From the IMG/VR virus record IMGVR_UViG_648276647_000020: a DNA stretch of 30,723 nt. One strand, written 5' to 3'. A program made the position numbers and the translations under genes. Shown one piece after another: positions 1 through 30,723 of this stretch (position 1 is its first letter; the number at the start of each line of letters is the position of its first letter). Under the pieces are notes generated by a model. It had not been told where the DNA came from. It did no database searches and saw only the letters and a list, made by a program, of their open reading frames with translations. The stretch is from a virus (taxonomy: Duplodnaviria > Heunggongvirae > Uroviricota > Caudoviricetes).

Positions 1-2103
1 ATGCAGTCGTACGTTACCGTAAATGACCTGCTCGGTGTTCCTGGAATGCCAGCCACCGCGAAAGGCATCCGACAGGCGTTACAGCGTTTTTCTCGTGCTC
101 TTGGTGACGTTAGTCGCCGTCGAGCAGGTACAAAAGCCATTGAGTACCACATCGATTGCCTGCCTGAGGTAACCCAAAAGGCACTGCGTGAACGCTATGT
201 GGAACAACTGGTGGCTACAGAGAACAACGTCTCCGAAGTGAAGACCGTTACCAGGACGGCGCGTAACCCTGATGCTGTTCAGGCAGTTGAAGCATATCGG
301 GGTTCTCCGCAACTAATGGAGGAACGCCTGAATGCCCTGACTGAAAATCAGCGCCGGGTGTCTGAAGCAAGAACGGCGCTGGCAGTGGAAGTGCTGAAGC
401 TGGAAAGCGCCGGTAACCTCGGGCGACTGAAAGCCATTAACTTTCTGGTTGAAAAAGCCCGTAAAGGTGAGTTGCCGGAACGACTGCAACAGGCTGCGAT
501 TAACGCTAATGCAAAACGTGGCACTAATCGCACCATCAGCCGTGATCCGCTTTACCAGTGGGTACTGAAATACAACCAGTCGCAGAACGCCGCAGAACGA
601 CTGTTGTTACTGGCACCAGGAAAACGCGACGAAATAAAACCGGAAGAAATTAGCTGGCTGCCTGAATTTCTGGCGCAGTATCGTCAGGCTAACGGCAGAC
701 CTATGTCGGAAGCCTACGAGGATTTTGTCACGGAATGGCAACGTCGCTATGCGGACGAACCGTACATGCTGGAGGTGATGCCTTCCTATGATGTTGTCCG
801 GTATGCCATGAAAAAATTGCCGGAAGTGGTGAAACAAAAAGGACGCGTTACCGGCAGTGAATACCGCCAGCTTGAGGGATTCACCCGCCGCGACTGGACA
901 GCTATGCCGGTGAATTATGTCTGGATTGGTGACGGCCACGGTATGAAGCTGAAATGTGCGCATCCGATCCACGGGCGTCCATTTTCACCGGAAGTCACGT
1001 TTGTTATCGACGGTGGAACCCGGTTTGTTGTTGGCTGGAGTCTTGTTCTTGCGGAGAACGTGTTTGCTGTTGCCGGGGCGATACAGCACGGAATTCGCAA
1101 TCACGGAAAACCCTACCTGTATTACTCGGATAATGGTTCCGGTGAAACGGCAGATATGCTGGATAAAGAGATCGTCGGGATTCTGCCCCGTCTGGGTATT
1201 AACCACCCCACCGGTATTGCCGGAAATCCGCAGGGACGCGGCATCATTGAACGTCTGAACCGGACGCTGCCGATGCGTATAGCCAGACGGTATCGCACCT
1301 ATTTTGGCAAGGGGGCAGACCGGGAAACACTGCGTGTACTCAATCGCGATCTGCGTTCAGCATTTAATGCCCTGCAACAGGACAAACCGCTGAATGCCCG
1401 CCAGAAATCTGCAATGCGCGAGCTGCCGTCCTGGTCAGAACTGATTGAGGCTATTCGTGAAGGAGTGGAATGGTACAACAACCGCCCGCATTCTGAACTG
1501 CCGATAAAACCAAACGGGAAGCATTACAGCCCGGCAGAGTTCAGAAAAAAACGCCTGGCGGAAGAAGACACTGAAATTGAGTGGCTGAGTGATATTGAGC
1601 TGCGTGACATGTTCCGCCCGATGGTGGAGCGTCCGGTAAGACGCTGCGAAATCCAGTGGCTGAACAATATTTACTACGCGCCAGAGCTGCGTGATGAACA
1701 TGGTCGCAAGGTACTTATCAGCTATGACATTCATGATGCCGAGCGAATTACGGTACGCCGTAAGGACGGTAGCTTTATCTGTGAGGCGATATGGAACGGC
1801 AATAAACGCGCAGCCTTTCCTGTTACGGCTGAATATCACAAACAACAGCAGCGTATCAAAGGAATGCGCAAGCGTGCTGAGGAAAAAATACGTGATGCTG
1901 AGGATGAAGGTATTCAGGTTATTGAACAAAAAACGACAGAACCCTGGCTGGATAACATCTATCGCCCTGTTGGTAATGTGGTGACCGTTCAGCCGCTGAA
2001 GCGTGAGGAAGCGCATGATGACAAATACGACCCCGAACGTGATGAATATCTGAATCATTCGCTGGATATTCTGGAACAGAACAGACGTAAAAAAGTCATT
2101 TAA
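1..2103 (+). CDS. A: Mu-like DDE transposase A
   Basis: 700 aa ORF. C-terminus ...ERDEYLNHSLDILEQNRRKKVI resembles the MuA domain III tail (MuB/ClpX interaction) as I recall it. Core has IGDGHG, YYSDNGSGE and GIIERLNRT segments compatible with a D-D-E triad but looks divergent from MuA. Immediately upstream of the B-like ATPase. Confidence 0.88.
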   Translation: MQSYVTVNDLLGVPGMPATAKGIRQALQRFSRALGDVSRRRAGTKAIEYHIDCLPEVTQKALRERYVEQLVATENNVSEVKTVTRTARNPDAVQAVEAYRGSPQLMEERLNALTENQRRVSEARTALAVEVLKLESAGNLGRLKAINFLVEKARKGELPERLQQAAINANAKRGTNRTISRDPLYQWVLKYNQSQNAAERLLLLAPGKRDEIKPEEISWLPEFLAQYRQANGRPMSEAYEDFVTEWQRRYADEPYMLEVMPSYDVVRYAMKKLPEVVKQKGRVTGSEYRQLEGFTRRDWTAMPVNYVWIGDGHGMKLKCAHPIHGRPFSPEVTFVIDGGTRFVVGWSLVLAENVFAVAGAIQHGIRNHGKPYLYYSDNGSGETADMLDKEIVGILPRLGINHPTGIAGNPQGRGIIERLNRTLPMRIARRYRTYFGKGADRETLRVLNRDLRSAFNALQQDKPLNARQKSAMRELPSWSELIEAIREGVEWYNNRPHSELPIKPNGKHYSPAEFRKKRLAEEDTEIEWLSDIELRDMFRPMVERPVRRCEIQWLNNIYYAPELRDEHGRKVLISYDIHDAERITVRRKDGSFICEAIWNGNKRAAFPVTAEYHKQQQRIKGMRKRAEEKIRDAEDEGIQVIEQKTTEPWLDNIYRPVGNVVTVQPLKREEAHDDKYDPERDEYLNHSLDILEQNRRKKVI

Positions 2104-2141
2104 TTAACGTTTTAACAAAATTTAATTACGAGGTTATTCAG

Positions 2142-3080
2142 ATGAATATTTCCGATATTCGCGCAGGACTGCGCACGCTTGTAGAAAATGAAGAAACCAC
2201 CTTTAAACAAATTGCTCTCGAGAGCGGGCTTTCTACCGGAACTATCAGTAGTTTTATCAATGATAAGTACAACGGGGATAACGAGCGTGTTTCACAAATG
2301 CTGCAACGCTGGCTGGAAAAATATCATGCAGTTGCAGAACTACCTGAACCGCCCCGCTTTGTGGAAACGCAGACGGTAAAACAAATCTGGACAAGTATGC
2401 GTTTTGCCAGCCTGACTGAAAGTATTGCTGTTGTATGTGGCAATCCTGGTGTGGGCAAAACCGAAGCGGCCCGTGAATATCGCCGCACCAATAACAATGT
2501 CTGGATGATCACCATTACGCCATCCTGTGCCAGCGTTCTGGAATGTCTTACTGAACTGGCGTTTGAGCTGGGAATGAATGACGCACCACGCCGTAAAGGG
2601 CCACTCTCCCGTGCCCTGCGACGTCGCCTTGAAGGTACACAGGGGCTGGTTATCATCGACGAAGCTGATCATCTTGGTGCCGAAGTTCTGGAAGAACTCC
2701 GCCTGTTACAGGAATCAACCCGCACTGGCCTTGTGCTGATGGGAAATCACCGGGTTTATTCAAATATGACGGGGGGTAACAGAACGGTTGAATTTGCCCG
2801 TCTGTTTTCCCGTATTGCAAAGCGCACTGCAATTAATAAAACAAAAAAAGCCGATGTAAAAGCTATTGCGGATGCCTGGCAGATTAACGGCGAAAATGAA
2901 CTGGAGTTATTACAGCAGATTGCGCAGAAACCAGGTGCGCTTCGCATTCTGAATCATTCACTTCGCCTTGCAGCCATGACGGCTCACGGTAAAGGTGAGC
3001 GTGTTAACGAAGATTATCTGCGTCAGGCTTTCCGTGAATTAGACCTGGACGTTGATATTTCAACGCTGCTGCGTAATTAA
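2142..3080 (+). CDS. B: Mu B-like transposition ATPase (target DNA activator)
   Basis: 312 aa. Walker A GNPGVGKTE, Walker B-like LVIIDEADHL. SD gagg upstream of ATG. Position directly after A. Confidence 0.92.
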   Translation: MNISDIRAGLRTLVENEETTFKQIALESGLSTGTISSFINDKYNGDNERVSQMLQRWLEKYHAVAELPEPPRFVETQTVKQIWTSMRFASLTESIAVVCGNPGVGKTEAAREYRRTNNNVWMITITPSCASVLECLTELAFELGMNDAPRRKGPLSRALRRRLEGTQGLVIIDEADHLGAEVLEELRLLQESTRTGLVLMGNHRVYSNMTGGNRTVEFARLFSRIAKRTAINKTKKADVKAIADAWQINGENELELLQQIAQKPGALRILNHSLRLAAMTAHGKGERVNEDYLRQAFRELDLDVDISTLLRN

Positions 3081-3325: not shown

Positions 3326-3556
3326 ATGTGTATTAAAGCTGAAAAATATATTGAATGGGTTAAACACTGTCAGTGCCACGGGGTGCCGCTGACGACATAT
3401 AAATGCCCCGGATGTGGTGAACAGATTATGACGCAATGCTCACCCGAAAAGGAAATTCGGGATTCCCTGACATGTTGTCCGTGGTGCAGCGCAGTTTTCT
3501 TTAAACAGGTAAAAGGCGCGAAGGTAAAAGCCAGCGCGGTTATTCAGAATCAATAA
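3326..3556 (+). CDS. Cys-rich putative zinc-ribbon small protein
   Basis: 76 aa from ATG 3326 (SD ggaga 3315-3319); the ORF track's earlier start lies inside the previous gene. Motifs CQCHG, CPGCG, CCPWC. Confidence 0.55.
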   Translation: MCIKAEKYIEWVKHCQCHGVPLTTYKCPGCGEQIMTQCSPEKEIRDSLTCCPWCSAVFFKQVKGAKVKASAVIQNQ

Positions 3557-3567
3557 GGTGAAACAAA

Positions 3568-3831
3568 ATGGCAAAAGTAATTATTGAAATTAAAAATACA
3601 GTATCTGGAATTAAAGGACGGAATTTGCGCACCAGCATTGCGGTGGACGGTAGTGCGGAACTGGACGGTGATGAGGGTACACTTGCTGGCATGGTGGCGT
3701 TACTGGTGCTTAATAAAAGCCAGAAAATAATTAATGAGTCAGCCCATGAAGCTATTGAGATTTTGAAAAACGATGGTGTCATCACCGGTGTCCGTGTCAC
3801 TGAAATGGCTGTTGAAAAAACATGCCACTGA
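3568..3831 (+). CDS. hypothetical early protein
   Basis: 87 aa ORF, SD aaggtg upstream, AT-rich codon usage like neighbouring early ORFs. Confidence 0.55.
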   Translation: MAKVIIEIKNTVSGIKGRNLRTSIAVDGSAELDGDEGTLAGMVALLVLNKSQKIINESAHEAIEILKNDGVITGVRVTEMAVEKTCH

Positions 3832-3845
3832 AAGGAACGCTGACA

Positions 3846-4265
3846 ATGAACGTCAAAATCCGAAATGAAATTCAGGCATTAATCCGAATTCAGGAACGCA
3901 ATAACAACGGTGGTGAATTACGCGAGTTTATTTGCGCCCGGAAAGTTGATGGTTATGGTGAAAAGACTTACCTGATTACTTTCGACCATTACAGCATCTG
4001 TGCGCGTTATTGTGGCGAAAGCATATCCCGCGCCATTGCGTCTGGCGATGCGTTTAACGTGGATTTATGGGAGTACGTCATGGACCGTGAATACATCTGT
4101 GTATCAGACCCGAAAGCCCGTGAAATGTGGCAGCGTATCTGGCGCGATTACCGGTTAATGGCAAAAGGCTGGGCGCGCTGCTGTTATTCCTCGCTTGCCC
4201 TGAAAGCGGTTCAGTTATCGCTGCGGCATATTCCGGCATCACTGCGCGAGCCTCTGCTGTACTGA
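3846..4265 (+). CDS. hypothetical early protein (Cys-containing)
   Basis: 140 aa from internal ATG 3846 (MNVKIRNE...). Alternative start ATG 3822 overlaps the previous stop. No recognisable motif. Confidence 0.5.
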   Translation: MNVKIRNEIQALIRIQERNNNGGELREFICARKVDGYGEKTYLITFDHYSICARYCGESISRAIASGDAFNVDLWEYVMDREYICVSDPKAREMWQRIWRDYRLMAKGWARCCYSSLALKAVQLSLRHIPASLREPLLY

Positions 4266-6438: not shown

Positions 6439-6741
6439 ATGAATAATGAAACTAAATTTACTCCCCTTAATATTGATAACGTCATGGCTGAAAAAGGGAT
6501 GCTGGAACGTGTTCGCGCTATCGTTGAATATGGTATTAAGCATAATCTCACCGCCAGAGAAGTCCGTGACATTATCAACCGCGAAATGAATCGTCTGGAA
6601 ACAGTAGTGGCACTGCAAAATGAAACAGCCCGCGAGGAGTACATCCGCCGCAGGCTGGGGCTATCAGACCAGGATATTGTTACTGACGCTCATGTATTTG
6701 AGGCTTTTGAGATCCGTCAGCATCTGGGCCTTACGAACTGA
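6439..6741 (+). CDS. hypothetical early protein
   Basis: 100 aa from ATG 6439 with SD aaggtg; the track's 6424 start is a GTG just upstream. Confidence 0.5.
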   Translation: MNNETKFTPLNIDNVMAEKGMLERVRAIVEYGIKHNLTAREVRDIINREMNRLETVVALQNETAREEYIRRRLGLSDQDIVTDAHVFEAFEIRQHLGLTN

Positions 6742-6792
6742 TGTGTAAATTCAGGCGGTGTTGCAGCACCGCCTCTTTCCGGAGGTACGATC

Positions 6793-7807: not shown

Positions 7808-8038
7808 ATGGGTAAAGGCTGGAATGCATCCTTTCATCTTGGCAGACGTGAGCGGCTGCGTCAGGAGGTTTTACACCGTGTCGCCGGTGGGCCACGTCCT
7901 GCGCCCCGCGACTATACCGGTCATGATGGCACCCACGGAAGTTATTACATGAAAGGCTGGCAGTCGGTTGATATGCCGGAAATTCTTCACCACTGCCAAC
8001 GTTATAAGGAAAAATATCATGTACAGAAAATTCAGTGA
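7808..8038 (+). CDS. hypothetical small protein between mor and C
   Basis: 76 aa ORF with SD ggggga upstream. Overlapped by minus-strand ORFs, so coding status is uncertain. Confidence 0.4.
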   Translation: MGKGWNASFHLGRRERLRQEVLHRVAGGPRPAPRDYTGHDGTHGSYYMKGWQSVDMPEILHHCQRYKEKYHVQKIQ

Positions 8039-8150
8039 TGAATGTTTCGGGCCGTCCACGCTGATTAATGCGATAAAAGTGATTGCCCTTGTGGTTCTGA
8101 TAACCATCAGTGCCGTGGTGTATCTTTCTGTCTGTTAACCGGGGGAAAAT

Positions 8151-8573
8151 ATGCAGCATGATTTATTTGAACACGATCCGGCAATTCGCCAGTTAATCGG
8201 ACATATTGATAACATCCCGGCCCCGGAACTGGAATCACGCTGGCCCCGTTCGGTGGTTGATCTGATTGATGTTCTGGAAAACGAACTGAAACGCCAGAAC
8301 GTCAGCAATCCCCGTGAGCTTGCCCGTAAACAGGCCGTTGCCCTGTCCTGTTTTCTGGGCGGGCGGCAGTTTTATATCCCCTGTGGCGATACTATCCTGA
8401 CCGCGTTACGCGACGATTTGCTTTACTGCCAGTTCAATGGTCGTAACATGGAAGAACTGCGTCGCCAGTACCGCCTGTCCCAGCCGCAGATCTACCAGAT
8501 TATTGCCCGCCAGAGAAAGCTGCATACACGGCGTCATCAGCCTGATCTGTTCTCACCTGAAAGCCCAAAATAA
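8151..8573 (+). CDS. C: C-like late-gene transcription activator (Mor/C family)
   Basis: 140 aa; YIPCGDTILTALRDDLLYCQFNGRNMEELRRQYRLSQPQIYQIIAR parallels the Mor HTH region. SD ggggga. Confidence 0.85.
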   Translation: MQHDLFEHDPAIRQLIGHIDNIPAPELESRWPRSVVDLIDVLENELKRQNVSNPRELARKQAVALSCFLGGRQFYIPCGDTILTALRDDLLYCQFNGRNMEELRRQYRLSQPQIYQIIARQRKLHTRRHQPDLFSPESPK

Positions 8574-8594: not shown

Positions 8595-8664
8595 CCTGTC
8601 ACCATAATCCCGCACCTGTCACCTGATTTTTTAGACTGCCATCAGAGCATTTTTTCAGGGAAGC
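8595..8664 (+). promoter_or_regulatory. candidate C-dependent late promoter upstream of lys
   Basis: Motif CATAATCCCGCACCT (8603-8617) shares CATAA(T/C)CCC and CCCGCACCT with the region upstream of gene I (16783-16807). Possible -10 TAGACT at 8632-8637. Confidence 0.45.
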
Positions 8665-9183: not shown

Positions 9184-9553
9184 AAGTTTACTGCTGGCAG
9201 CCGTGTTTACCGCCGTTCTGTCCGGGGTGTTGTGGCACAGGCTGGACAGCACCCGCCACGATAACCAGACGCTGCGCCGTGAATTACAGACGGAGCAACA
9301 GGCCCGCAACACGGCTGAATGGTTGTTACACGGTCAGGAACAGACGATGCAGGTATTTTCCGCTATCCGTGCCGCAAATCGTGCCGCACGGCTGGCAGAT
9401 GAGACAGAACATCATGATGCAAAAGAAAAAATTACAACCGCCATTACTGGTGACAATTGCAGCACTCGTCCTGTGCCTGCCGTTGCTGCTGACAGGTTGC
9501 GGGAACTCGAAAAACGCACCCGTGCCATCGGTGGTGATCCTGCCCGAAACTGA
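9167..9553 (+). CDS. i-spanin (Rz-like)
   Basis: 128 aa with N-terminal TM helix (LLLAAVFTAVLSGVLW) then charged coiled-coil-like periplasmic domain. Directly after the endolysin, overlapping its stop. Confidence 0.7.
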   Translation: MTFASKSLLLAAVFTAVLSGVLWHRLDSTRHDNQTLRRELQTEQQARNTAEWLLHGQEQTMQVFSAIRAANRAARLADETEHHDAKEKITTAITGDNCSTRPVPAVAADRLRELEKRTRAIGGDPARN

Positions 9554-9755
9554 TACAGAACTGACAGAAGCAACGCCCGTTCCGCCCATGCCACAGCCCC
9601 TGACGTGGGGAGCATCCCTTCTCTGGAATGCTGACCTGTTGATGGCGCTCGGGCAGTGCAACCGCGACAAGGCATCAGTCCGGGAACAGGAGATCCGAAG
9701 GAAAGAAATTTATGAACGAAGACCAGAACCGGGCGGTGGCGCTGCTGCTCGCTGA
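9414..9755 (+). CDS. o-spanin (Rz1-like lipoprotein), overlapped architecture
   Basis: Starts at ATGATG 9414 in the +1 frame inside the i-spanin gene. Signal peptide with lipobox LLLTGC, then a Pro-rich mature region. The 3' extent (114 aa) is longer than typical and uncertain. Confidence 0.6.
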   Translation: MMQKKKLQPPLLVTIAALVLCLPLLLTGCGNSKNAPVPSVVILPETDTELTEATPVPPMPQPLTWGASLLWNADLLMALGQCNRDKASVREQEIRRKEIYERRPEPGGGAAAR

Positions 9756-9906
9756 ACTCTGGCAGGGGGATACCCGTGATATTCCCCGCCCGGCGGCGTA
9801 TGACCCGCCTGTATTGTGTGCCGGTTGCTGTCGTGAGCTGCGGCCTGATGTGCTGAGACAGCAGCCGATGGCGAACTACTGCCACTGGTGCCGTGGAGCA
9901 GAATAA
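9712..9906 (+). CDS. hypothetical small Cys-containing protein
   Basis: 64 aa. Stop overlaps the start of the next gene (TAATG at 9904-9908), suggesting coupling. Overlaps the o-spanin 3' end. Confidence 0.45.
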   Translation: MNEDQNRAVALLLAELWQGDTRDIPRPAAYDPPVLCAGCCRELRPDVLRQQPMANYCHWCRGAE

Positions 9907-10503: not shown

Positions 10504-11079
10504 ATGGACAGGAAAACACGGGGCCGGGCTTCAAAAGTGGATTTACTGCCGGAAAACGTACGTAAAACGCTGCATGAAATGCTGCGTGATAAGGCGATCC
10601 CACAGGCCCGCATTCTGGAAGAAATTAACGCACTGATTGAAGACGCAGGCCTGCCGGATGAGATGAAACTCTCCCGTTCCGGTCTGAACCGTTACGCGAC
10701 GAACGTCGAGCAGGTAGGCCATAACCTGCGACAGATGCGTGAAATGACGTCAGCACTGACCGCAGAACTTGGCGACAAGCCAATGGGCGAAACCACAAAG
10801 CTGATTCTGGAAATGGCCCGCAGCCAGCTTTTTAAGGCCATGATGCGGCAAATCGAAAACCCGGAATCTGACGTGGATATTGACCTGCTGAAAAATGCCA
10901 TGCTGGCGGCACAGCGTCTGGAATCCACGGCAATGTCCAGCCACCGGCGCGAGAAAGAAATCCGCCAGGCATTCGCAGAAGAAGCAGCAAACGCCGTCAG
11001 TGAAGAACTGCGCGGGCAGGATGGTATCAGCGAAGAGCTGGAGCAGCGTATCCGTGATGTACTGCTGGGGAAAGCGTAG
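10504..11079 (+). CDS. Mu gp27-like protein (putative small terminase/DNA-binding subunit)
   Basis: Perfect SD AGGAGG 7 nt before ATG 10504; the track's 10489 start overlaps the previous stop. Basic N-terminus, acidic C-terminus. Immediately upstream of the large-terminase region. Confidence 0.65.
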   Translation: MDRKTRGRASKVDLLPENVRKTLHEMLRDKAIPQARILEEINALIEDAGLPDEMKLSRSGLNRYATNVEQVGHNLRQMREMTSALTAELGDKPMGETTKLILEMARSQLFKAMMRQIENPESDVDIDLLKNAMLAAQRLESTAMSSHRREKEIRQAFAEEAANAVSEELRGQDGISEELEQRIRDVLLGKA

Positions 11080-11089
11080 GCGTTACGTT

Positions 11090-11260
11090 ATGAAAAATGA
11101 TTACAAAGCACAGCTAATCAGTGCCCATAAAAAAGCCTTCAGGATTGCAACATTGTCTGATGTCCGGTTGATACACCAGATTCGGGATGTGCTTGTTCAG
11201 GCTATGGCTTCAGGCAATTCATGGCATACGACCATAAAACAACTAAGGACTTTGTCCTGA
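11090..11260 (+). CDS. hypothetical small protein (islet ORF 1)
   Basis: 56 aa from ATG 11090, weak RBS, lower-GC sequence than the flanking late genes. Confidence 0.35.
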   Translation: MKNDYKAQLISAHKKAFRIATLSDVRLIHQIRDVLVQAMASGNSWHTTIKQLRTLS

Positions 11261-11270
11261 GGAGATGAAA

Positions 11271-11468
11271 ATGGCGGATGAAAAAACTAAATACAAGACC
11301 TCAACAGAACTGGCAATGGTACTGTGGCCCGTTGTGAAAAAACAGATTGATGAGGATCCGGAAGTCCATCCACGAATTATGGCCGAGGCCCTGTATCTGG
11401 TTATGCAACTGGTGGATGGCCCGGCTACAGCGGGCCAGGTGATCAGTTATTCTCAGGTTCACCGATAA
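11271..11468 (+). CDS. hypothetical small protein (islet ORF 2)
   Basis: 65 aa from ATG 11271 with GGAG 7 nt upstream (alternative ATG 11265). Confidence 0.4.
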   Translation: MADEKTKYKTSTELAMVLWPVVKKQIDEDPEVHPRIMAEALYLVMQLVDGPATAGQVISYSQVHR

Positions 11469-11637
11469 CGGTTTTTTCAACAATTTTGTAGAAAGCATTA
11501 AATGTGTTTTCTTCCACTGATGCTTTTCCTGAACAGGAGATCTCAAGTGAAACGCCTTTTGCCTGGGTGGATTCAAACATTTGCACGGCTATCCGGGCAA
11601 TTTCGATTTTTTGATCAATGGTCAGTTTCTCTTTCAT
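11443..11637 (-). CDS. hypothetical small protein on the opposite strand (candidate moron)
   Basis: 64 aa (MKEKLTIDQKIEIARIAVQMFESTQAKGVSLEISCSGKASVEENTFNAFYKIVEKTVIGEPENN). Minus-strand ATG at 11635-11637 is preceded by AAGAGG SD at 5 nt spacing. About 38% GC by my manual count over 11461-11700, versus about 52% in the adjacent terminase start. Confidence 0.45.
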   Translation of the reverse strand: MKEKLTIDQKIEIARIAVQMFESTQAKGVSLEISCSGKASVEENTFNAFYKIVEKTVIGEPENN

Positions 11638-11692
11638 AAAAACCTCTTTTTTACTGATTAATGCCTGAAAATTTATACCGGATTTTTCGCCC

Positions 11693-13348
11693 ATGAGCAC
11701 CAGAGAAAGCAAACTTAAAGCCCTTCATGCGCCCCGCAAAATCGACCTGCGTAAGGAAGCCGGACTGCTCGGCGTGAATATCGTGACCGATATCGGTGAA
11801 GCACAGCCCCGCAATGAACCGGTTTTCCTGGGCTATCAGCGCCGCTGGTTTGAGGATGAAAGCCAGATTTGTATCGCTGAAAAATCCCGTCGTACCGGTC
11901 TGACATGGGCTGAAGCGGGCCGCAATGTCATGACGGCCGCAAAGCCGAAGCGTCGCGGTGGTCGCAACGTCTTTTATGTGGGTTCCCGTCAGGAAATGGC
12001 GCTGGAATACATCGCCGCCTGTGCCCTGTTTGCCCGCGCCTTTAACCAGCTGGCAAAGGCTGATGTCTGGGAGCAGACCTTCTGGGACAGCGATAAAAAA
12101 GAAGAAATCCTCACTTATATGATCCGCTTTCCGAACAGCGGATTTAAGATACAGGCGCTGTCAAGCCGCCCGTCTAACCTGCGTGGTTTGCAGGGGGACG
12201 TGGTGATTGATGAGGCGGCATTTCATGAAGCCCTGGACGAACTCCTGAAAGCGGCCTTTGCACTAAACATGTGGGGTGCCAGCGTGCGCATCATATCGAC
12301 ACATAACGGCGTCGATAATTTGTTTAATCAGTACATTCAGGATGCGCGCGAGGGGCGCAAGGATTACAGCGTTCACCGCATCACGCTGGATGATGCCATC
12401 GCTGACGGGTTGTACCGACGTATCTGTTACGTCACGAATCAGCCGTGGTCGCCGGAAGCGGAAAAAGCCTGGCGTGATGGCCTGTACCGGAATGCGCCGA
12501 ATAAAGAGAGTGCTGACGAGGAATACGGCTGCATTCCTAAAAAATCCGGGGGCGCTTATCTGTCACGCGTGCTGATTGAAGCCGCCATGACGCCAGCGCG
12601 GGATATCCCGGTTCTGCGTTTTGAAGCCCCGGACGATTTTGAATCGCTGACACCACAAATGCGCCACGACATCGTTCAGGACTGGTGTGAACAGGAGCTG
12701 CTCCCGTTGCTCGATGCGCTGTCGCCGCTCAATAAACACGTACTGGGCGAAGACTTTGCGCGCCGTGGCGACCTGACGGTGTTTGTGCCGCTTGCCATCA
12801 CGCCTGACTTACGCAAACGCGAATGTTTCCGCGTGGAGCTGCGTAATGTGACCTATGACCAGCAGCGACAAATCCTTTTATTCATTCTGTCCCGTTTGCC
12901 CCGTTTTACCGGCGCTGCATTTGATGCCACCGGTAACGGCGGTTATCTGGCAGAGGCCGCCCGTCTGATTTATGGCCCGGAGATGATCGACTGCATCAGT
13001 CTGACCCCCGCCTGGTATCAGGAGTGGATGCCAAAACTGAAAGGCGAGTTTGAAGCGCAGAACATCACGATTGCCCGGCATCAGACCACACTTGATGACC
13101 TGCTTCATATCAAGGTGGATAAGGGGATCCCGCAGATTGACAAGGGGCGCACAAAAGATGAAGGCGGTAAAGGCCGACGACATGGCGACTTTGCCGTAGC
13201 GCTCTGTATGGCTGTCAGGGCGTCTTATATGAATGGTTTTGTTATCGACGAGGACAGCATACAGGCGCTGCCACCACGCCACCGTGGTGATGATGTTGAT
13301 AACGATGATTTTGATGATTATCACCAGTTTGAACGAGGGGGCTGGTAA
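11693..13348 (+). CDS. terminase large subunit (Mu gp28-like)
   Basis: 551 aa ORF directly upstream of and coupled to the portal gene (TAATG overlap); size and position as in Mu-like phages. Confidence 0.8.
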   Translation: MSTRESKLKALHAPRKIDLRKEAGLLGVNIVTDIGEAQPRNEPVFLGYQRRWFEDESQICIAEKSRRTGLTWAEAGRNVMTAAKPKRRGGRNVFYVGSRQEMALEYIAACALFARAFNQLAKADVWEQTFWDSDKKEEILTYMIRFPNSGFKIQALSSRPSNLRGLQGDVVIDEAAFHEALDELLKAAFALNMWGASVRIISTHNGVDNLFNQYIQDAREGRKDYSVHRITLDDAIADGLYRRICYVTNQPWSPEAEKAWRDGLYRNAPNKESADEEYGCIPKKSGGAYLSRVLIEAAMTPARDIPVLRFEAPDDFESLTPQMRHDIVQDWCEQELLPLLDALSPLNKHVLGEDFARRGDLTVFVPLAITPDLRKRECFRVELRNVTYDQQRQILLFILSRLPRFTGAAFDATGNGGYLAEAARLIYGPEMIDCISLTPAWYQEWMPKLKGEFEAQNITIARHQTTLDDLLHIKVDKGIPQIDKGRTKDEGGKGRRHGDFAVALCMAVRASYMNGFVIDEDSIQALPPRHRGDDVDNDDFDDYHQFERGGW

Positions 13349-29713: not shown

Positions 29714-30246
29714 CACCCTATCAGACGGCCTTTCTGCAATTACTGCCGTCAGGGCTTGCCTGGAATAAAAGCCCCGACAGCAAATTATCTGCGCTGGCGC
29801 AGGCCATCAGCGACGTGATTGCCACTGCGGCGGATGATGCGCGGCAAATGCTGCGGGAGCGTTTCCCGTCCACATCCCGCTGGTATCTGGGGGAGTGGGA
29901 ATCATTTCTGGGGTTGCCGGACTGTACAAGCGAAAACGGCACCCTGTCCGAACGCCAGCGGGCTGCCGCGAATAAAATGCGTATGACCGGCAATCTGAGT
30001 CGGCGCTTTTATGAATGGCTGGCTGCGCAGTACGGTTTTACCGTCAGGCTGACGGATTCCACAGAAGGCCAGTGGGTTACGCAGGTCAATATTTACGGTA
30101 TTAAAAATTATCGCAACGCAACGGTGCTGGATAATGTTCTGACGCCGTTACGTGTTTATGAATCGGGTGCGCTGGAATGTTTACTGGAGAAATATAAACC
30201 CGCACATCAGATTTATAAATTTGTTTACCATGACGGAGATAACTAA
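29704..30246 (+). CDS. tail protein (Mu gp48/R-like)
   Basis: 180 aa; last intact phage gene before the IS insertion. Its stop TAA overlaps a downstream ATG (30246). Confidence 0.65.
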   Translation: MAVTPYQTAFLQLLPSGLAWNKSPDSKLSALAQAISDVIATAADDARQMLRERFPSTSRWYLGEWESFLGLPDCTSENGTLSERQRAAANKMRMTGNLSRRFYEWLAAQYGFTVRLTDSTEGQWVTQVNIYGIKNYRNATVLDNVLTPLRVYESGALECLLEKYKPAHQIYKFVYHDGDN

Positions 30247-30256
30247 TGTTTTATAT

Positions 30257-30274
30257 GGCTTTGTTGAATAAATC
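30257..30274. repeat. IS903-type 18-bp terminal inverted repeat
   Basis: GGCTTTGTTGAATAAATC; the partner repeat is expected about 1 kb to the right, outside the window. Confidence 0.75.
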
Positions 30275-30312
30275 AGATTTCGGGTAAGTCTCCCCCGTAG
30301 CGGGTTGTGTTT

Positions 30313-30723
30313 TCAGGCAATACGCAGGCTTTCAGGCATACCTGCTTTCGTCATTTTGTTCAGCGCTCGTACCAGGGCCATAGCCTCCGCAACCTGACCA
30401 TCGTAGTCACGCAACGTCAGTGAACCCCCGAACAGCTGTTTTACCCGGTACATCGCCGTTTCCGCTATCGAGCGACGGTTGTAATCTGTTGTCCATTTCC
30501 ACCGCGCATTACTCCCGGTCATTCGCTGACTGGCCACTGCACGGTTACGGTCTGCATATTCACCGGGCCAGTAACCCGCACCTTTTCGGGGAGGAATAAG
30601 CGCGCTGATTTTCTTACGCCGCAGTTCATCGTGACAGAGCCGGGTGTCGTAAGCGCCGTCTGCCAGTGCTGCCCTGATTTTTCTGTGAGTCTGCCGGATA
30701 AGACCCGGGAAGGCTTCTGAGTC
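30313..30723 (-). CDS. IS903-family transposase, C-terminal portion (N-terminus outside window)
   Basis: Minus-strand frame open from the window edge to the stop at 30313-30315; translation ...DRNRAVASQRMTGSNARWKWTTDYNRRSIAETAMYRVKQLFGGSLTLRDYDGQVAEAMALVRALNKMTKAGMPESLRIA. Confidence 0.8.
   Translation of the reverse strand, partial: DSEAFPGLIRQTHRKIRAALADGAYDTRLCHDELRRKKISALIPPRKGAGYWPGEYADRNRAVASQRMTGSNARWKWTTDYNRRSIAETAMYRVKQLFGGSLTLRDYDGQVAEAMALVRALNKMTKAGMPESLRIA

What the first reader, a model, noticed from the sequence alone, without database searches (positions are those of the whole stretch)
11090..11700. Low-GC islet with a lone opposite-strand gene between gp27 and the large terminase
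Every phage gene in the window is on the + strand except one 64-aa ORF (11443-11637, minus) with a strong SD (AAGAGG, 5 nt) and a TATAAAT -10-like element about 35 nt upstream of its start (revcomp of 11671-11677). It lies in a ~600 bp gap where gp27 would normally abut the terminase, together with two small + ORFs. By my count 11461-11700 is about 38% GC versus about 52% in the adjacent terminase start. An independently transcribed insert antisense to the late transcript is the classic moron signature: lysogen-expressed cargo such as superinfection exclusion, a toxin/antitoxin element or an anti-defence factor. No motif tells me which.
Basis: partly seen in the sequence, partly recalled or inferred. 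Interest (0 to 1): 0.7.

Follow-up and report, generated by a model that had tools for sequence, protein, structure and literature searches.

The report
Candidate defence/counter-defence cassette in Mu-like prophage
Between the two DNA-packaging genes of this Mu-like prophage lies a three-gene cassette that phage Mu lacks; its backward-facing 64-residue gene and forward-facing partner are laid out like Tab/anti-Tab, a known prophage "weapon and antidote" pair that sabotages rival phages' assembly, but the proteins show no sequence similarity to that pair and the function is untested.

Summary
Window 11076-11692 is the only insertion relative to phage Mu in about 28 kb of 98.5%-identical sequence. 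It holds ORF1 (+, 56 aa), ORF2 (+, 65 aa) and ORF3 (-, 64 aa), and 11461-11700 is 37.9% GC.

ORF3 is a real gene. It belongs to a small Enterobacterales family (phrog_25148, no known function) with an almost invariant N-terminus (KLTIDQKIxIAxIA). pN is below pS in all 45 orthologue pairs, and every copy has a Shine-Dalgarno site.

It is not a one-off insert. [quoted passage not shown] Their 3' ends overlap by 14-26 nt in nearly all lineages. The pair is hypervariable between phages whose terminases are 96-98% identical. Low GC is a trait of the family.

The layout matches Tab/anti-Tab of Pseudomonas Mu-like phage JBD26. JBD26 terminases are 52-61% identical to those of distant islet-bearing prophages. 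No sequence homology to Tab, anti-Tab, Tai or Ati was detected.

ORF1 is a stand-alone copy of the N-terminal segment of the head protein F (gp30).

Best reading: a Tab-like, prophage-expressed virion-assembly blocker (ORF3) with a late-operon self-immunity partner (ORF2, perhaps ORF1). Expression and function are untested.

The parts
10504..11079 (+). gp27 (D), small terminase subunit (DUF3486/Phage_Mu_Gp27); left boundary of the cassette
   Evidence: 100% aa identity to Mu gp27. Homology between cassette variants stops exactly at its stop codon.
11090..11260 (+). ORF1, 56 aa, late strand; stand-alone homologue of residues 44-92 of the phage's own minor head protein F (gp30)
   Evidence: BLASTP against window gp30, E 9e-5. 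ORF1-family profile against gp30: hhalign probability 95.6%, E 1e-8. phrog_220 E 3e-4. pN<pS in 10/10 pairs. Fused in frame to ORF2 in Klebsiella loci L018/L020.
11271..11468 (+). ORF2, 65 aa, late strand; candidate counter-defence (self-immunity) partner of ORF3
   Evidence: phrog_21398 E 2e-39. pN<pS in 35/36 pairs. Intact next to every ORF3 copy in non-decayed loci. Present alone in phage Tongde and in E. albertii prophages.
11443..11637 (-). ORF3, 64 aa, antisense to the late operon; candidate prophage-expressed defence protein (helical hairpin, invariant N-terminal helix)
   Evidence: Family of 18 clusters; all 18 aligned family members match phrog_25148. pN<pS in 45/45 pairs, and the N-terminal motif has pS 0.77 against pN 0.15. 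AlphaFold2 model: helices 7-27 and 41-58, pLDDT 72.5.
11443..11468 (.). 26-nt convergent 3' overlap of ORF2 and ORF3
   Evidence: The same 26-nt overlap occurs in L005, L014, L016, L029 and L031. Overlaps of 14-20 nt occur in L013, L015 and L009. JBD26 atab/tab overlap by 47 nt.
11643..11648 (-). Shine-Dalgarno AAGAGG of ORF3, 5 nt before the ATG
   Evidence: A purine-rich SD is present upstream of all 10 orthologues inspected.
11671..11677 (-). -10-like TATAAAT of the putative ORF3 promoter; the -35 position falls on the gp28 start codon
   Evidence: A -10-like hexamer lies about 40 nt before the ATG in window/L011 (TATAAA), L005/L009 (GATAAT) and L018 (CATAAT). It was not reported by the consensus scan. 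There is no Mu C-box.
11590..11692 (.). Conserved anchor: ORF3 promoter region, 5'UTR and first ~15 codons, shared at the DNA level by cassette variants whose ORF3 bodies are only 36-40% identical
   Evidence: Three-way DNA alignment of window, L011 and L021.
11479..11680 (.). ~200-bp segment (ORF3 body, SD and -10) missing in the Tongde and E. albertii type, which keeps ORF2
   Evidence: Alignment A1.
11693..13348 (+). gp28 (E), large terminase subunit; right boundary of the cassette. It has no Shine-Dalgarno here, unlike in Mu.
   Evidence: 98% identical to Mu gp28. Upstream sequence is CCGGATTTTTCGCCC-ATG, against GAGAGGG in Mu.

Best explanation
The islet is a conserved but dispensable three-gene accessory cassette at the small-terminase/large-terminase junction of enterobacterial Mu-like prophages.

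Shown:
- ORF3 (11443-11637, minus) is a real gene for a 64-residue soluble helical-hairpin protein with its own ribosome-binding site.
- ORF3 is always paired convergently with ORF2, which lies on the late strand.
- The pair is hypervariable between otherwise near-identical phages.
- ORF1 is a copy of the N-terminal segment of head protein F.

Inferred, by position-for-position analogy with Tab/anti-Tab of Pseudomonas Mu-like phage JBD26 and with the Tai/Ati and TERi systems:
- ORF3 is made from its own weak promoter while the prophage is silent. It blocks a late step (virion assembly or DNA packaging) of superinfecting related phages, probably through its invariant N-terminal helix.
- On induction, the late transcript supplies ORF2, and possibly ORF1. 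ORF2 binds its cognate ORF3 variant and protects the phage's own assembly.

The proteins are not detectable homologues of Tab or anti-Tab, so the claim is that the cassette works like Tab/anti-Tab, not that it is a member of that family.
For: Anatomy:
- The islet is the only insertion relative to Mu.
- ORF3 is under purifying selection, with SD sites conserved in all orthologues and a recurrent -10-like element.

Synteny:
- In about 14 distinct lineages from E. coli, Salmonella, Erwinia, Klebsiella, IMG/VR viral contigs and metagenomes, ORF3 is convergent with an intact ORF2 between terS and terL.

Hypervariability:
- L011 and L021 have gp27 and gp28 96-98% identical to the window, but ORF2 only 39-46% and ORF3 36-40% identical.
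- The breakpoints lie at the gp27 stop codon and inside the first ~15 codons of ORF3.

Precedent:
- In JBD26, tab (83 aa) lies between terS and terL on the minus strand with its own promoter. atab lies on the plus strand in the late operon.
- Both are dispensable and absent from close relatives. An atab-only deletion was not obtainable (PMC10884400).
- The fetched JBD26 locus shows a 47-nt 3' overlap and lower GC in tab.
- JBD26 terS and terL are 52% and 61% identical to those of L013, which carries ORF2/ORF3 at that position.

Presence/absence fits the model:
- ORF2 alone exists in Tongde and E. albertii prophages.
- ORF3 without an intact ORF2 is seen only in a decayed prophage that also has a frameshifted terL (L017).

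Other parallels:
- In TERi, a conserved promoter is followed by alternating, unrelated defence genes.
- ORF3 has no Mu late-promoter C-box upstream.
Against: - No sequence similarity to Tab, anti-Tab, TaiEcA or AtiEcA. hhalign probability is at most 0.2%, Smith-Waterman z is at most 3.1, and hmmsearch scores are negative.
- No hit in PADLOC, Pfam, NCBIfam or PDB sequences.
- Fold searches returned only generic helical hairpins.
- The promoter is weak by consensus and was missed by the scan. There is no conserved terminator and no expression data.
- Co-variation of ORF2 and ORF3 could reflect physical linkage alone.
- In L018, three extra genes separate ORF3 from terL. In L011 the two ORFs do not overlap.
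- The target of ORF3 is unknown.
Confidence: 0.5

Rival explanations
1. Generic lysogen-expressed moron. ORF3 acts on the host or on host defences (host physiology or anti-defence factor) and is functionally independent of ORF2 and ORF1. These would be late-expressed packaging or head accessory proteins that merely share the hotspot.
For: Small, soluble, unannotated protein on the antisense strand with low GC. The invariant N-terminal helix across phages with very different structural genes could mean a conserved host target. Regions of genomic plasticity in Pseudomonas Mu-like phages hold anti-CRISPR genes in low-GC pockets (PMC4378225).
Against: ORF3 never occurs apart from an ORF2-family gene in about 14 lineages. 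The two diverge together, and most copies share a conserved 3' overlap. An anti-defence gene is needed early in infection and is normally co-oriented with early or lytic transcription, not antisense inside the late operon.
Confidence: 0.2
2. Regulatory element of the packaging operon. Antisense transcription from the ORF3 promoter, or the ORF3 protein itself, modulates expression of ORF2, ORF1, gp27 or the SD-less terL. It would act as a brake on leaky late transcription in lysogens.
For: Any ORF3 transcript is antisense to ORF2. terL has lost its Mu-type Shine-Dalgarno site in islet-bearing phages and starts with GTG in L011 and L021. The putative ORF3 -35 overlaps the terL start codon.
Against: Strong protein-level selection with saturated synonymous sites, including in the N-terminal motif, shows that the protein matters and not just the RNA. 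No Rfam match. Mu packages well without the cassette. L013-type terL has a strong SD yet keeps the pair.
Confidence: 0.1
3. Toxin-antitoxin or addiction-like pair. One of ORF2 and ORF3 is toxic to the cell and the other neutralises it, stabilising the prophage or causing abortive infection.
For: Two small cognate, co-varying proteins. The convergent overlapping transcripts are reminiscent of some type I systems.
Against: No toxin or antitoxin family hit in Pfam, NCBIfam or PADLOC. Neither protein is hydrophobic or has a nuclease or DNA-binding signature. The genes are on opposite strands under different regulation, unlike type II operons. Plaque-forming phage Tongde and E. albertii prophages carry ORF2 alone, and 9 E. 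coli prophages have lost both without obvious consequence.
Confidence: 0.07
4. ORF3 is a chance open reading frame in an AT-rich spacer and is not a gene.
For: It is short and has few database relatives (4 clusters by word-seeded search). Annotation pipelines disagree on its start (83 or 89 aa against 64 aa).
Against: The frame is preserved across sequences with saturated synonymous divergence, and length differences are in-frame. pN<pS in 45/45 pairs. SD sites are conserved. A profile search found 18 clusters, of which about 16 are proteins of similar size (61-86 aa).
Confidence: 0.01

Closest known systems
Tab / anti-Tab of Pseudomonas aeruginosa Mu-like phage JBD26 (Patel et al. 2024, PMC10884400)
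   Same: [quoted passage not shown]
- The partner gene is on the late strand downstream of terS.
- The pair is convergent with overlapping 3' ends (47 nt in JBD26, 26 nt here).
- Both proteins are small (83 and 83 aa in JBD26; 64 and 65 aa here).
- GC is lower than in the flanks.
- The pair is dispensable and absent from relatives with near-identical terminases.
- The host phage is Mu-like, and JBD26 terS/terL are 52-61% identical to those of L013-type islet carriers.
   Different: - No detectable sequence similarity in either protein.
- An extra gene (ORF1) sits between terS and the partner gene.
- The ORF3 family has an invariant N-terminal motif and exists as several highly divergent alleles.
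- Hosts are Enterobacterales.
- Function, target (tape measure protein for Tab) and expression are untested here.
- The Tab paper states that Tab homologues are known only in close relatives of JBD26.
Tai / Ati 'noncontiguous operon' of E. coli phage phi80, other prophages and PICIs (PMC11364771)
   Same: A constitutively expressed defence gene is antisense within the late operon, next to a small late-expressed cognate counter-defence protein that binds it. It lies near the packaging module. Pairs are allele-specific.
   Different: TaiEcA is 204 aa and is arranged divergently, not convergently, with atiEcA. There is no sequence similarity. It is carried by lambdoid phages and satellites, and its target is the central tail fibre.
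TERi (TerI / anti-TerI1 / anti-TerI2) of Listeria comK prophages (bioRxiv 10.1101/2025.02.27.640495)
   Same: A 65-aa defence protein on the opposite strand has its own promoter and overlaps a lytic-strand gene. There are two self-immunity proteins in the lytic operon. It targets packaging (TerS). The promoter is conserved while the downstream gene alternates, which parallels the conserved ORF3 5' anchor with swapped bodies.
   Different: The host is Gram-positive. The system lies in the early lytic module, not at the terS/terL junction. Its sequences were not compared here.
Regions of genomic plasticity (RGPs) in Pseudomonas Mu-like phages (Cazares et al. 2014, PMC4378225) and morons in general
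   Same: A fixed insertion point between core genes, low GC, presence/absence among close relatives, and short ORFs of unknown function.
   Different: Here the content of the hotspot is one conserved gene-pair family across distant phages, not a random assortment. No flanking terminator was found.

Membership tests
Tab/anti-Tab (JBD26) | [quoted passage not shown] | tested here: met
   ORF3 (11443-11637, minus) lies between gp27 (ends 11079) and gp28 (starts 11693). The JBD26 locus has the same layout.
Tab/anti-Tab (JBD26) | Companion gene on the late strand after terS, always accompanying the defence gene | tested here: met
   An ORF2-family gene accompanies ORF3 in every locus. It is intact in all but the decayed L017. 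ORF1 intervenes between terS and ORF2 in most Muvirus-type loci.
Tab/anti-Tab (JBD26) | Sequence homology of the defence protein to Tab (AEY99485 / YP_010299225) | tested here: not met
   hhalign of A3 against Tab gives probability 0.2%. Smith-Waterman z is at most 3.1 and the hmmsearch score is -0.9 bits.
Tab/anti-Tab (JBD26) | Sequence homology of the partner to anti-Tab (gp30) | tested here: not met
   hhalign of A4 against anti-Tab gives probability 0.2%. z is at most 0.75 and the score is -1.8 bits.
Tab/anti-Tab (JBD26) | Own promoter; constitutive expression from the prophage | tested here: inconclusive
   A -10-like hexamer lies about 40 nt upstream in 5 of 10 lineages, and the SD is conserved. 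The consensus scan found no promoter. No C-box is present. No RNA data are available.
Tab/anti-Tab (JBD26) | Dispensable; absent from close relatives with >90% identical terminases | tested here: met
   Mu, D108, SfMu and 34 of 44 E. coli Mu-like prophages lack it, with gp27 and gp28 96-100% identical.
Tab/anti-Tab (JBD26) | Blocks tail assembly of invading phages through the tape measure protein; the partner binds and neutralises it | not testable with these tools
   This needs plating assays, electron microscopy, escape mutants and interaction assays.
Tai/Ati (phi80 type) | Sequence homology to TaiEcA / AtiEcA | tested here: not met
   hhalign probabilities are 0.17% and 0.04%. TaiEcA is 204 aa against 64 aa for ORF3.
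Tai/Ati (phi80 type) | Noncontiguous operon: the defence gene is antisense and interrupts the late operon that encodes the counter-defence | tested here: met
   ORF3 is antisense between ORF2 and terL, and both of these are on the late strand downstream of Plys (C-box at 8603).
TERi (Listeria) | Sequence homology to TerI / anti-TerI | not tested
   The sequences were not at hand. Only the architecture was compared, from the paper.
Moron (independent transcription unit added between conserved phage genes) | Extra DNA between genes that abut in relatives, flanked by its own promoter and terminator, with deviant composition | tested here: inconclusive
   The extra DNA and low GC are met. The promoter is weak. 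No conserved terminator exists: the only minus-strand candidate, at 11258-11246, is at chance level and is absent from L005. Low GC is family-wide.
Type II toxin-antitoxin | Co-transcribed adjacent genes; recognisable toxin fold; antitoxin with a DNA-binding domain | tested here: not met
   The genes are convergent on opposite strands. There are no Pfam, NCBIfam or PADLOC hits.
PHROG families (uncharacterised) | Profile match to phrog_25148 (ORF3) and phrog_21398 (ORF2) | tested here: met
   All 18 ORF3-family members match phrog_25148, best E 3e-47. ORF2 matches phrog_21398 at E 2e-39 over its full length. Both are annotated 'unknown function'.

The most novel reading that the evidence does not exclude
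The cassette would be a three-part conflict module in which the counter-defence includes a target mimic.

- ORF3, expressed from the prophage, would block head morphogenesis or packaging of incoming Mu-like phages. It would do so by binding, through its invariant N-terminal helix, the conserved N-terminal segment (residues ~44-92, motif AHAxAFxVA) of the minor head protein F (gp30).
- The phage would protect itself at induction with ORF1, a stand-alone decoy copy of exactly that F segment, and with ORF2, an allele-specific binder of the variable body of ORF3.

This would be a head-assembly counterpart of Tab in the classic Mu family, with a decoy-based self-immunity mechanism not described for Tab, Tai or TERi.
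Probability: 0.12. Interest if true: 0.85.

Novelty: new variant of a known kind. Interest (0 to 1): 0.6.

Why it matters
Prophage-encoded defences that sabotage virion assembly and carry a built-in antidote (Tab, Tai, TERi) were described only in 2024-2025. The Tab paper states that Tab homologues are known only in close relatives of JBD26.

If this cassette works the same way, three things follow:
- The terS/terL junction of Mu-like phages would be a general home for such pairs across Pseudomonas and Enterobacterales.
- The proteins would have diverged beyond recognition or been replaced by unrelated ones.
- The system would be directly testable in E. coli with phage Mu, which naturally lacks it.

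The cassette has features that could help explain how specificity and self-immunity are encoded in about 65 residues: an invariant N-terminal helix, swapped allelic bodies, a co-varying partner, and a mimic of head protein F.

It would also give names to two PHROG families of unknown function.

Tried and rejected
Family and structure searches that found nothing informative:
- Pfam, PHROGs, PADLOC and NCBIfam on all three proteins and on the family alignments returned only uncharacterised PHROGs.
- Profile searches against PDB sequences gave nothing meaningful. The designed-repeat hit for ORF1 is spurious.
- tblastn of ORF3 and of P0011 against 50,697 phage records found no match. No sequenced isolated phage in that collection carries ORF3; Tongde carries only ORF1 and ORF2.

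Nucleic-acid features:
- Rfam found nothing in 10900-11900.
- The consensus scan found no promoter. Terminator-like hits were at chance level, and the minus-strand one is not conserved.
- Similarity of the ORF3 upstream region to Mu late and middle promoters is no better than shuffled controls, and there is no C-box.

Homology to published systems:
- Tests against Tab, anti-Tab, TaiEcA and AtiEcA were negative.
- A deeper Tab profile could not be built, because Tab has a single cluster in the protein database.

Ideas rejected:
- The N-terminal conservation of ORF3 is not due to a cis-acting DNA or RNA element, because synonymous sites are saturated.
- The 83-aa and 89-aa annotated starts are not supported. 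All family members align from MKEK, each with its own SD.

Literature: a full-text search for the motif KLTIDQK found nothing.
Full report
**1. The observation**

The window is a Mu-type prophage. blastn against the Mu genome (AF083977) gives four collinear blocks at 97-98.7% identity covering window 2013-30256. The only window sequence within that span with no Mu counterpart is 11076-11692.

In Mu, the small-terminase gene gp27 ends 7 bp before the large-terminase gene gp28. Here gp27 ends at 11079 and gp28 starts at 11693.

The gap holds three ORFs:
- ORF1, 11090-11260, plus strand, 56 aa.
- ORF2, 11271-11468, plus strand, 65 aa.
- ORF3, 11443-11637, minus strand, 64 aa.

AAGAGG lies 5 nt before the ORF3 ATG, and TATAAAT lies at 11677-11671 on the minus strand.

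GC of 11461-11700 is 37.9%, against 55.8% in the next 240 nt. Only 0.3% of 240-nt windows are as low. The others lie in the early region or at about 30,030-30,130.

The consensus promoter scan reported no sigma-70 site in 10900-11900. The hexamer is TATAAA with a poor -35, which would lie over the gp28 start codon.

**2. Distribution of the junction types**

The collections searched show four forms of the gp27-gp28 junction:
- *No islet.* Mu, D108, SfMu, four Yersinia Mu-like phages and others have the 7-bp junction.
- *Whole islet.* Among 5426 complete E. coli genomes, 44 carry this gp27. One of them (RM8082) has the whole islet at 99.4% identity.
- *Remnant.* Nine E. coli genomes have ORF1 plus a stub of ORF2. 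The two other junctions inspected (E. coli W and MB06231) are Mu-type.
- *ORF1 and ORF2 without ORF3.* Phage Tongde and E. albertii prophages have ORF1 and ORF2 but lack about 200 bp (window ~11479-11680) that contain the ORF3 body, its SD and its -10 element.

**3. ORF3 is a real gene and a member of a family**

A word-seeded search of 5.8 billion proteins found only four clusters. One of them (P0004, 45% identical) lies on a Mu-like contig that is about 70% identical in DNA and has the same three genes in the same order and orientation.

A profile search of 1.84 billion representative proteins found 18 clusters. About 16 of these are proteins of 61-86 aa.

The family shares these features:
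- an almost invariant N-terminus, (M)KEKLTIDQKIxIAxIA;
- a variable, polar middle region;
- a second helix with the pattern LFxxxYxxIxxTI;
- usually an acidic tail, EPExN.

The named sources are E. coli, Shigella boydii, Salmonella, Citrobacter, Klebsiella, Serratia, Erwinia and Apirhabdus. All copies are annotated as hypothetical proteins.

Selection analysis supports a protein-coding gene:
- Across 10 orthologues, pN is below pS in all 45 pairs, with synonymous sites saturated (pS 0.62-0.86, pN 0.21-0.57).
- For the 15 codons of the N-terminal motif, mean pS is 0.77 and mean pN is 0.15. The motif is therefore conserved as protein, not as a nucleic-acid element.
- Every orthologue has a purine-rich SD.

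All family members align from MKEK. This supports the 64-aa start over the 83-aa and 89-aa annotated versions.

AlphaFold2 with 18 sequences predicts a helical hairpin, with helices at 7-27 and 41-58 (pLDDT 72.5, pTM 0.54). By inspection of the sequence there is no transmembrane segment.

All 18 members match phrog_25148, and ORF2 matches phrog_21398. Both PHROG families have unknown function. Nothing was found in Pfam, NCBIfam, PADLOC or PDB sequences, or by fold search.

**4. ORF3 is half of a conserved pair, not a lone insert**

[quoted passage not shown] In most loci the 3' ends overlap:
- 26 nt in the window, L005, L014, L016, L029 and L031;
- 14-20 nt in L013, L015 and L009;
- no overlap in L011.

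This holds for prophages whose portal is only 36-44% identical to that of Mu and which use a different (DUF1804-type) small terminase (L013-L016, L018). The pair is therefore old, and Mu more probably lost it than the window gained it.

ORF3 has lower GC (0.38-0.49) than its flanks (0.51-0.63) in all 12 loci. Low GC is thus a trait of the family and not evidence of recent acquisition.

ORF2 is under purifying selection (pN<pS in 35 of 36 pairs), as is ORF1 (10 of 10 pairs).

**5. The pair is hypervariable and mosaic**

Loci L011/L012/L022 and L021 have gp27 and gp28 that are 96-98% identical to the window. Their ORF2 is only 39-46% identical and their ORF3 only 36-40% identical, and they have no ORF1.

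At the DNA level:
- Homology runs from gp28 through the ORF3 upstream region and its first ~15 codons (to about 11590), then collapses.
- On the other side, homology stops at the gp27 stop codon.
- L011 and L021 are identical in the 5' half of ORF2. They differ in the 3' half of ORF2 and in the ORF3 body.

The exchangeable unit is therefore the ORF2 C-terminal half plus the ORF3 body, held between conserved anchors.

**6. ORF1**

The ORF1-family profile aligns to residues 44-92 of the phage's own minor head protein F (gp30), with hhalign probability 95.6% and E 1e-8. That segment carries a motif (AHAxAFxVA) conserved in the F proteins of all the related phages checked.

In the Klebsiella loci, ORF1 and ORF2 are fused in one reading frame. 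In L016 and L024, a 133-aa late-strand protein carries a second ORF2-like domain.

**7. Comparison with known systems**

A literature search led to Tab/anti-Tab of the Pseudomonas Mu-like phage JBD26 (PMC10884400). The paper reports the following:
- It is expressed constitutively from the prophage.
- It blocks tail assembly of invading phages through their tape measure protein.
- atab is on the plus strand in the late operon. Its product binds Tab and protects the phage's own lytic cycle.
- Both genes are dispensable and absent from close relatives with >90% identical terminases.
- A deletion of atab alone could not be obtained.
- The authors state that Tab homologues are known only in close relatives of JBD26.

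The fetched JBD26 locus shows these coordinates:
- terS, 1378-1878, plus strand.
- atab, 1878-2129, plus strand.
- tab, 2083-2334, minus strand, with a 47-nt 3' overlap with atab.
- terL, from 2365.
- tab GC is 0.54, against 0.65-0.67 in the flanks.

JBD26 terS and terL are 52% and 61% identical to those of L013, which carries ORF2/ORF3 at the equivalent position.

The presence/absence pattern here matches the logic of the Tab system. The putative antidote alone exists in Tongde and E. albertii prophages. The putative weapon without an intact antidote is seen only in a decayed prophage that also has a frameshifted terL (L017).

Two further systems share the opposite-strand defence and lytic-strand counter-defence design:
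- Tai/Ati of phi80 and other prophages (PMC11364771).
- TERi of Listeria (bioRxiv 10.1101/2025.02.27.640495). In TERi the promoter is conserved while the defence gene downstream alternates among unrelated ORFs. This resembles the conserved 5' anchor of ORF3.

There is no detectable sequence similarity between ORF3 and Tab or TaiEcA, or between ORF2 and anti-Tab or AtiEcA.

**8. Interpretation**

*Shown:* this is a real, conserved, dispensable and hypervariable three-gene cassette. ORF3 is a separately translated small helical protein, antisense to the late operon and convergently paired with ORF2.

*Inferred:* ORF3 is expressed in the lysogen and blocks a late step of related superinfecting phages. 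ORF2, and possibly the F-mimic ORF1, neutralises it on induction.

I put about 0.5 on this Tab-like mechanism. The anatomy is secure; expression, target and binding are untested.

The rival explanations are:
- an independent host-directed moron (0.2);
- a regulatory antisense brake on the packaging operon (0.1), prompted by the absence of a Shine-Dalgarno site before terL in islet-bearing phages;
- a toxin-antitoxin-like pair (0.07);
- a chance ORF (refuted).

**9. Novelty**

The two protein families are catalogued only as PHROGs of unknown function. The held literature contains no description of a Tab-like pair in Muvirus or Enterobacterales.

I rate this a new variant of a known kind. The architecture and genomic slot are those of Tab/anti-Tab. 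The proteins are unrelated or unrecognisably diverged. There is an additional F-mimic gene and an unusual domain logic of invariant helix plus swappable body.

Noticed in passing
window 11678-11695: The large terminase gene has no Shine-Dalgarno sequence in islet-bearing phages (CCGGATTTTTCGCCC-ATG), whereas Mu has GAGAGGG. In cassette variants L011 and L021 the terL start codon is GTG. How terL is translated efficiently here is unexplained.
   Followed up: partly
window 6739-6742 and 8018-8022: Relative to Mu, the window lacks Mu 7958-8178 (the gp54 region) and Mu 9462-9830 (gp19, a four-transmembrane protein).
   Followed up: no
window 1-2012: The 5' two-thirds of the transposase A gene has no blastn match to Mu at E 1e-10, although the rest of the window is 98.5% identical. 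This suggests a different allele of the A N-terminal region.
   Followed up: no
window 30257-30723: Identity to Mu ends about 10 nt into the tail-fibre gene S (Mu 31468). The host-range region differs from that of Mu.
   Followed up: no
L018 3062-3963 (Klebsiella sp. MISC125): Three extra late-strand genes lie between the ORF3-family gene and terL: a 119-aa membrane protein, a 109-aa Cys-rich protein and a 76-aa protein. The 76-aa protein resembles the N-terminus of the 133-157-aa proteins that precede ORF2 in L013-L016. The slot can therefore hold more cargo.
   Followed up: partly
L016 4430-4831 and L024 ~3500-3900: A 133-aa late-strand protein upstream of ORF2 ends in a second, divergent ORF2-like domain (motif ...LWLALQVIYGS...). 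This suggests duplication of the putative counter-defence module.
   Followed up: partly
L002 3364-3615 (E. coli RM8082) and P0001: Public annotations start ORF3 at an upstream ATG (83 aa, overlapping the terL start) or TTG (89 aa). Family alignment and SD position indicate the 64-aa start, so these starts are probably wrong.
   Followed up: yes
L002 590-1104 (E. coli RM8082): The endolysin gene of the only complete-genome E. coli prophage carrying the full islet is annotated as frameshifted, so that prophage may not be lysis-competent.
   Followed up: no
L017 (Apirhabdus apintestini CP138906): This is a decaying Mu-like prophage. terL, the portal gene and ORF2 are frameshifted, while ORF3 (61% identical) is intact.
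   Followed up: partly
window 11418-11440: A GC-rich hairpin (GGCCCG-N7-CGGGCC) lies inside the ORF2 3' region, just downstream of the ORF3 stop on the minus strand. It has no T-run, so it is not an obvious intrinsic terminator. It encodes the conserved GPxxA motif of ORF2.
   Followed up: no
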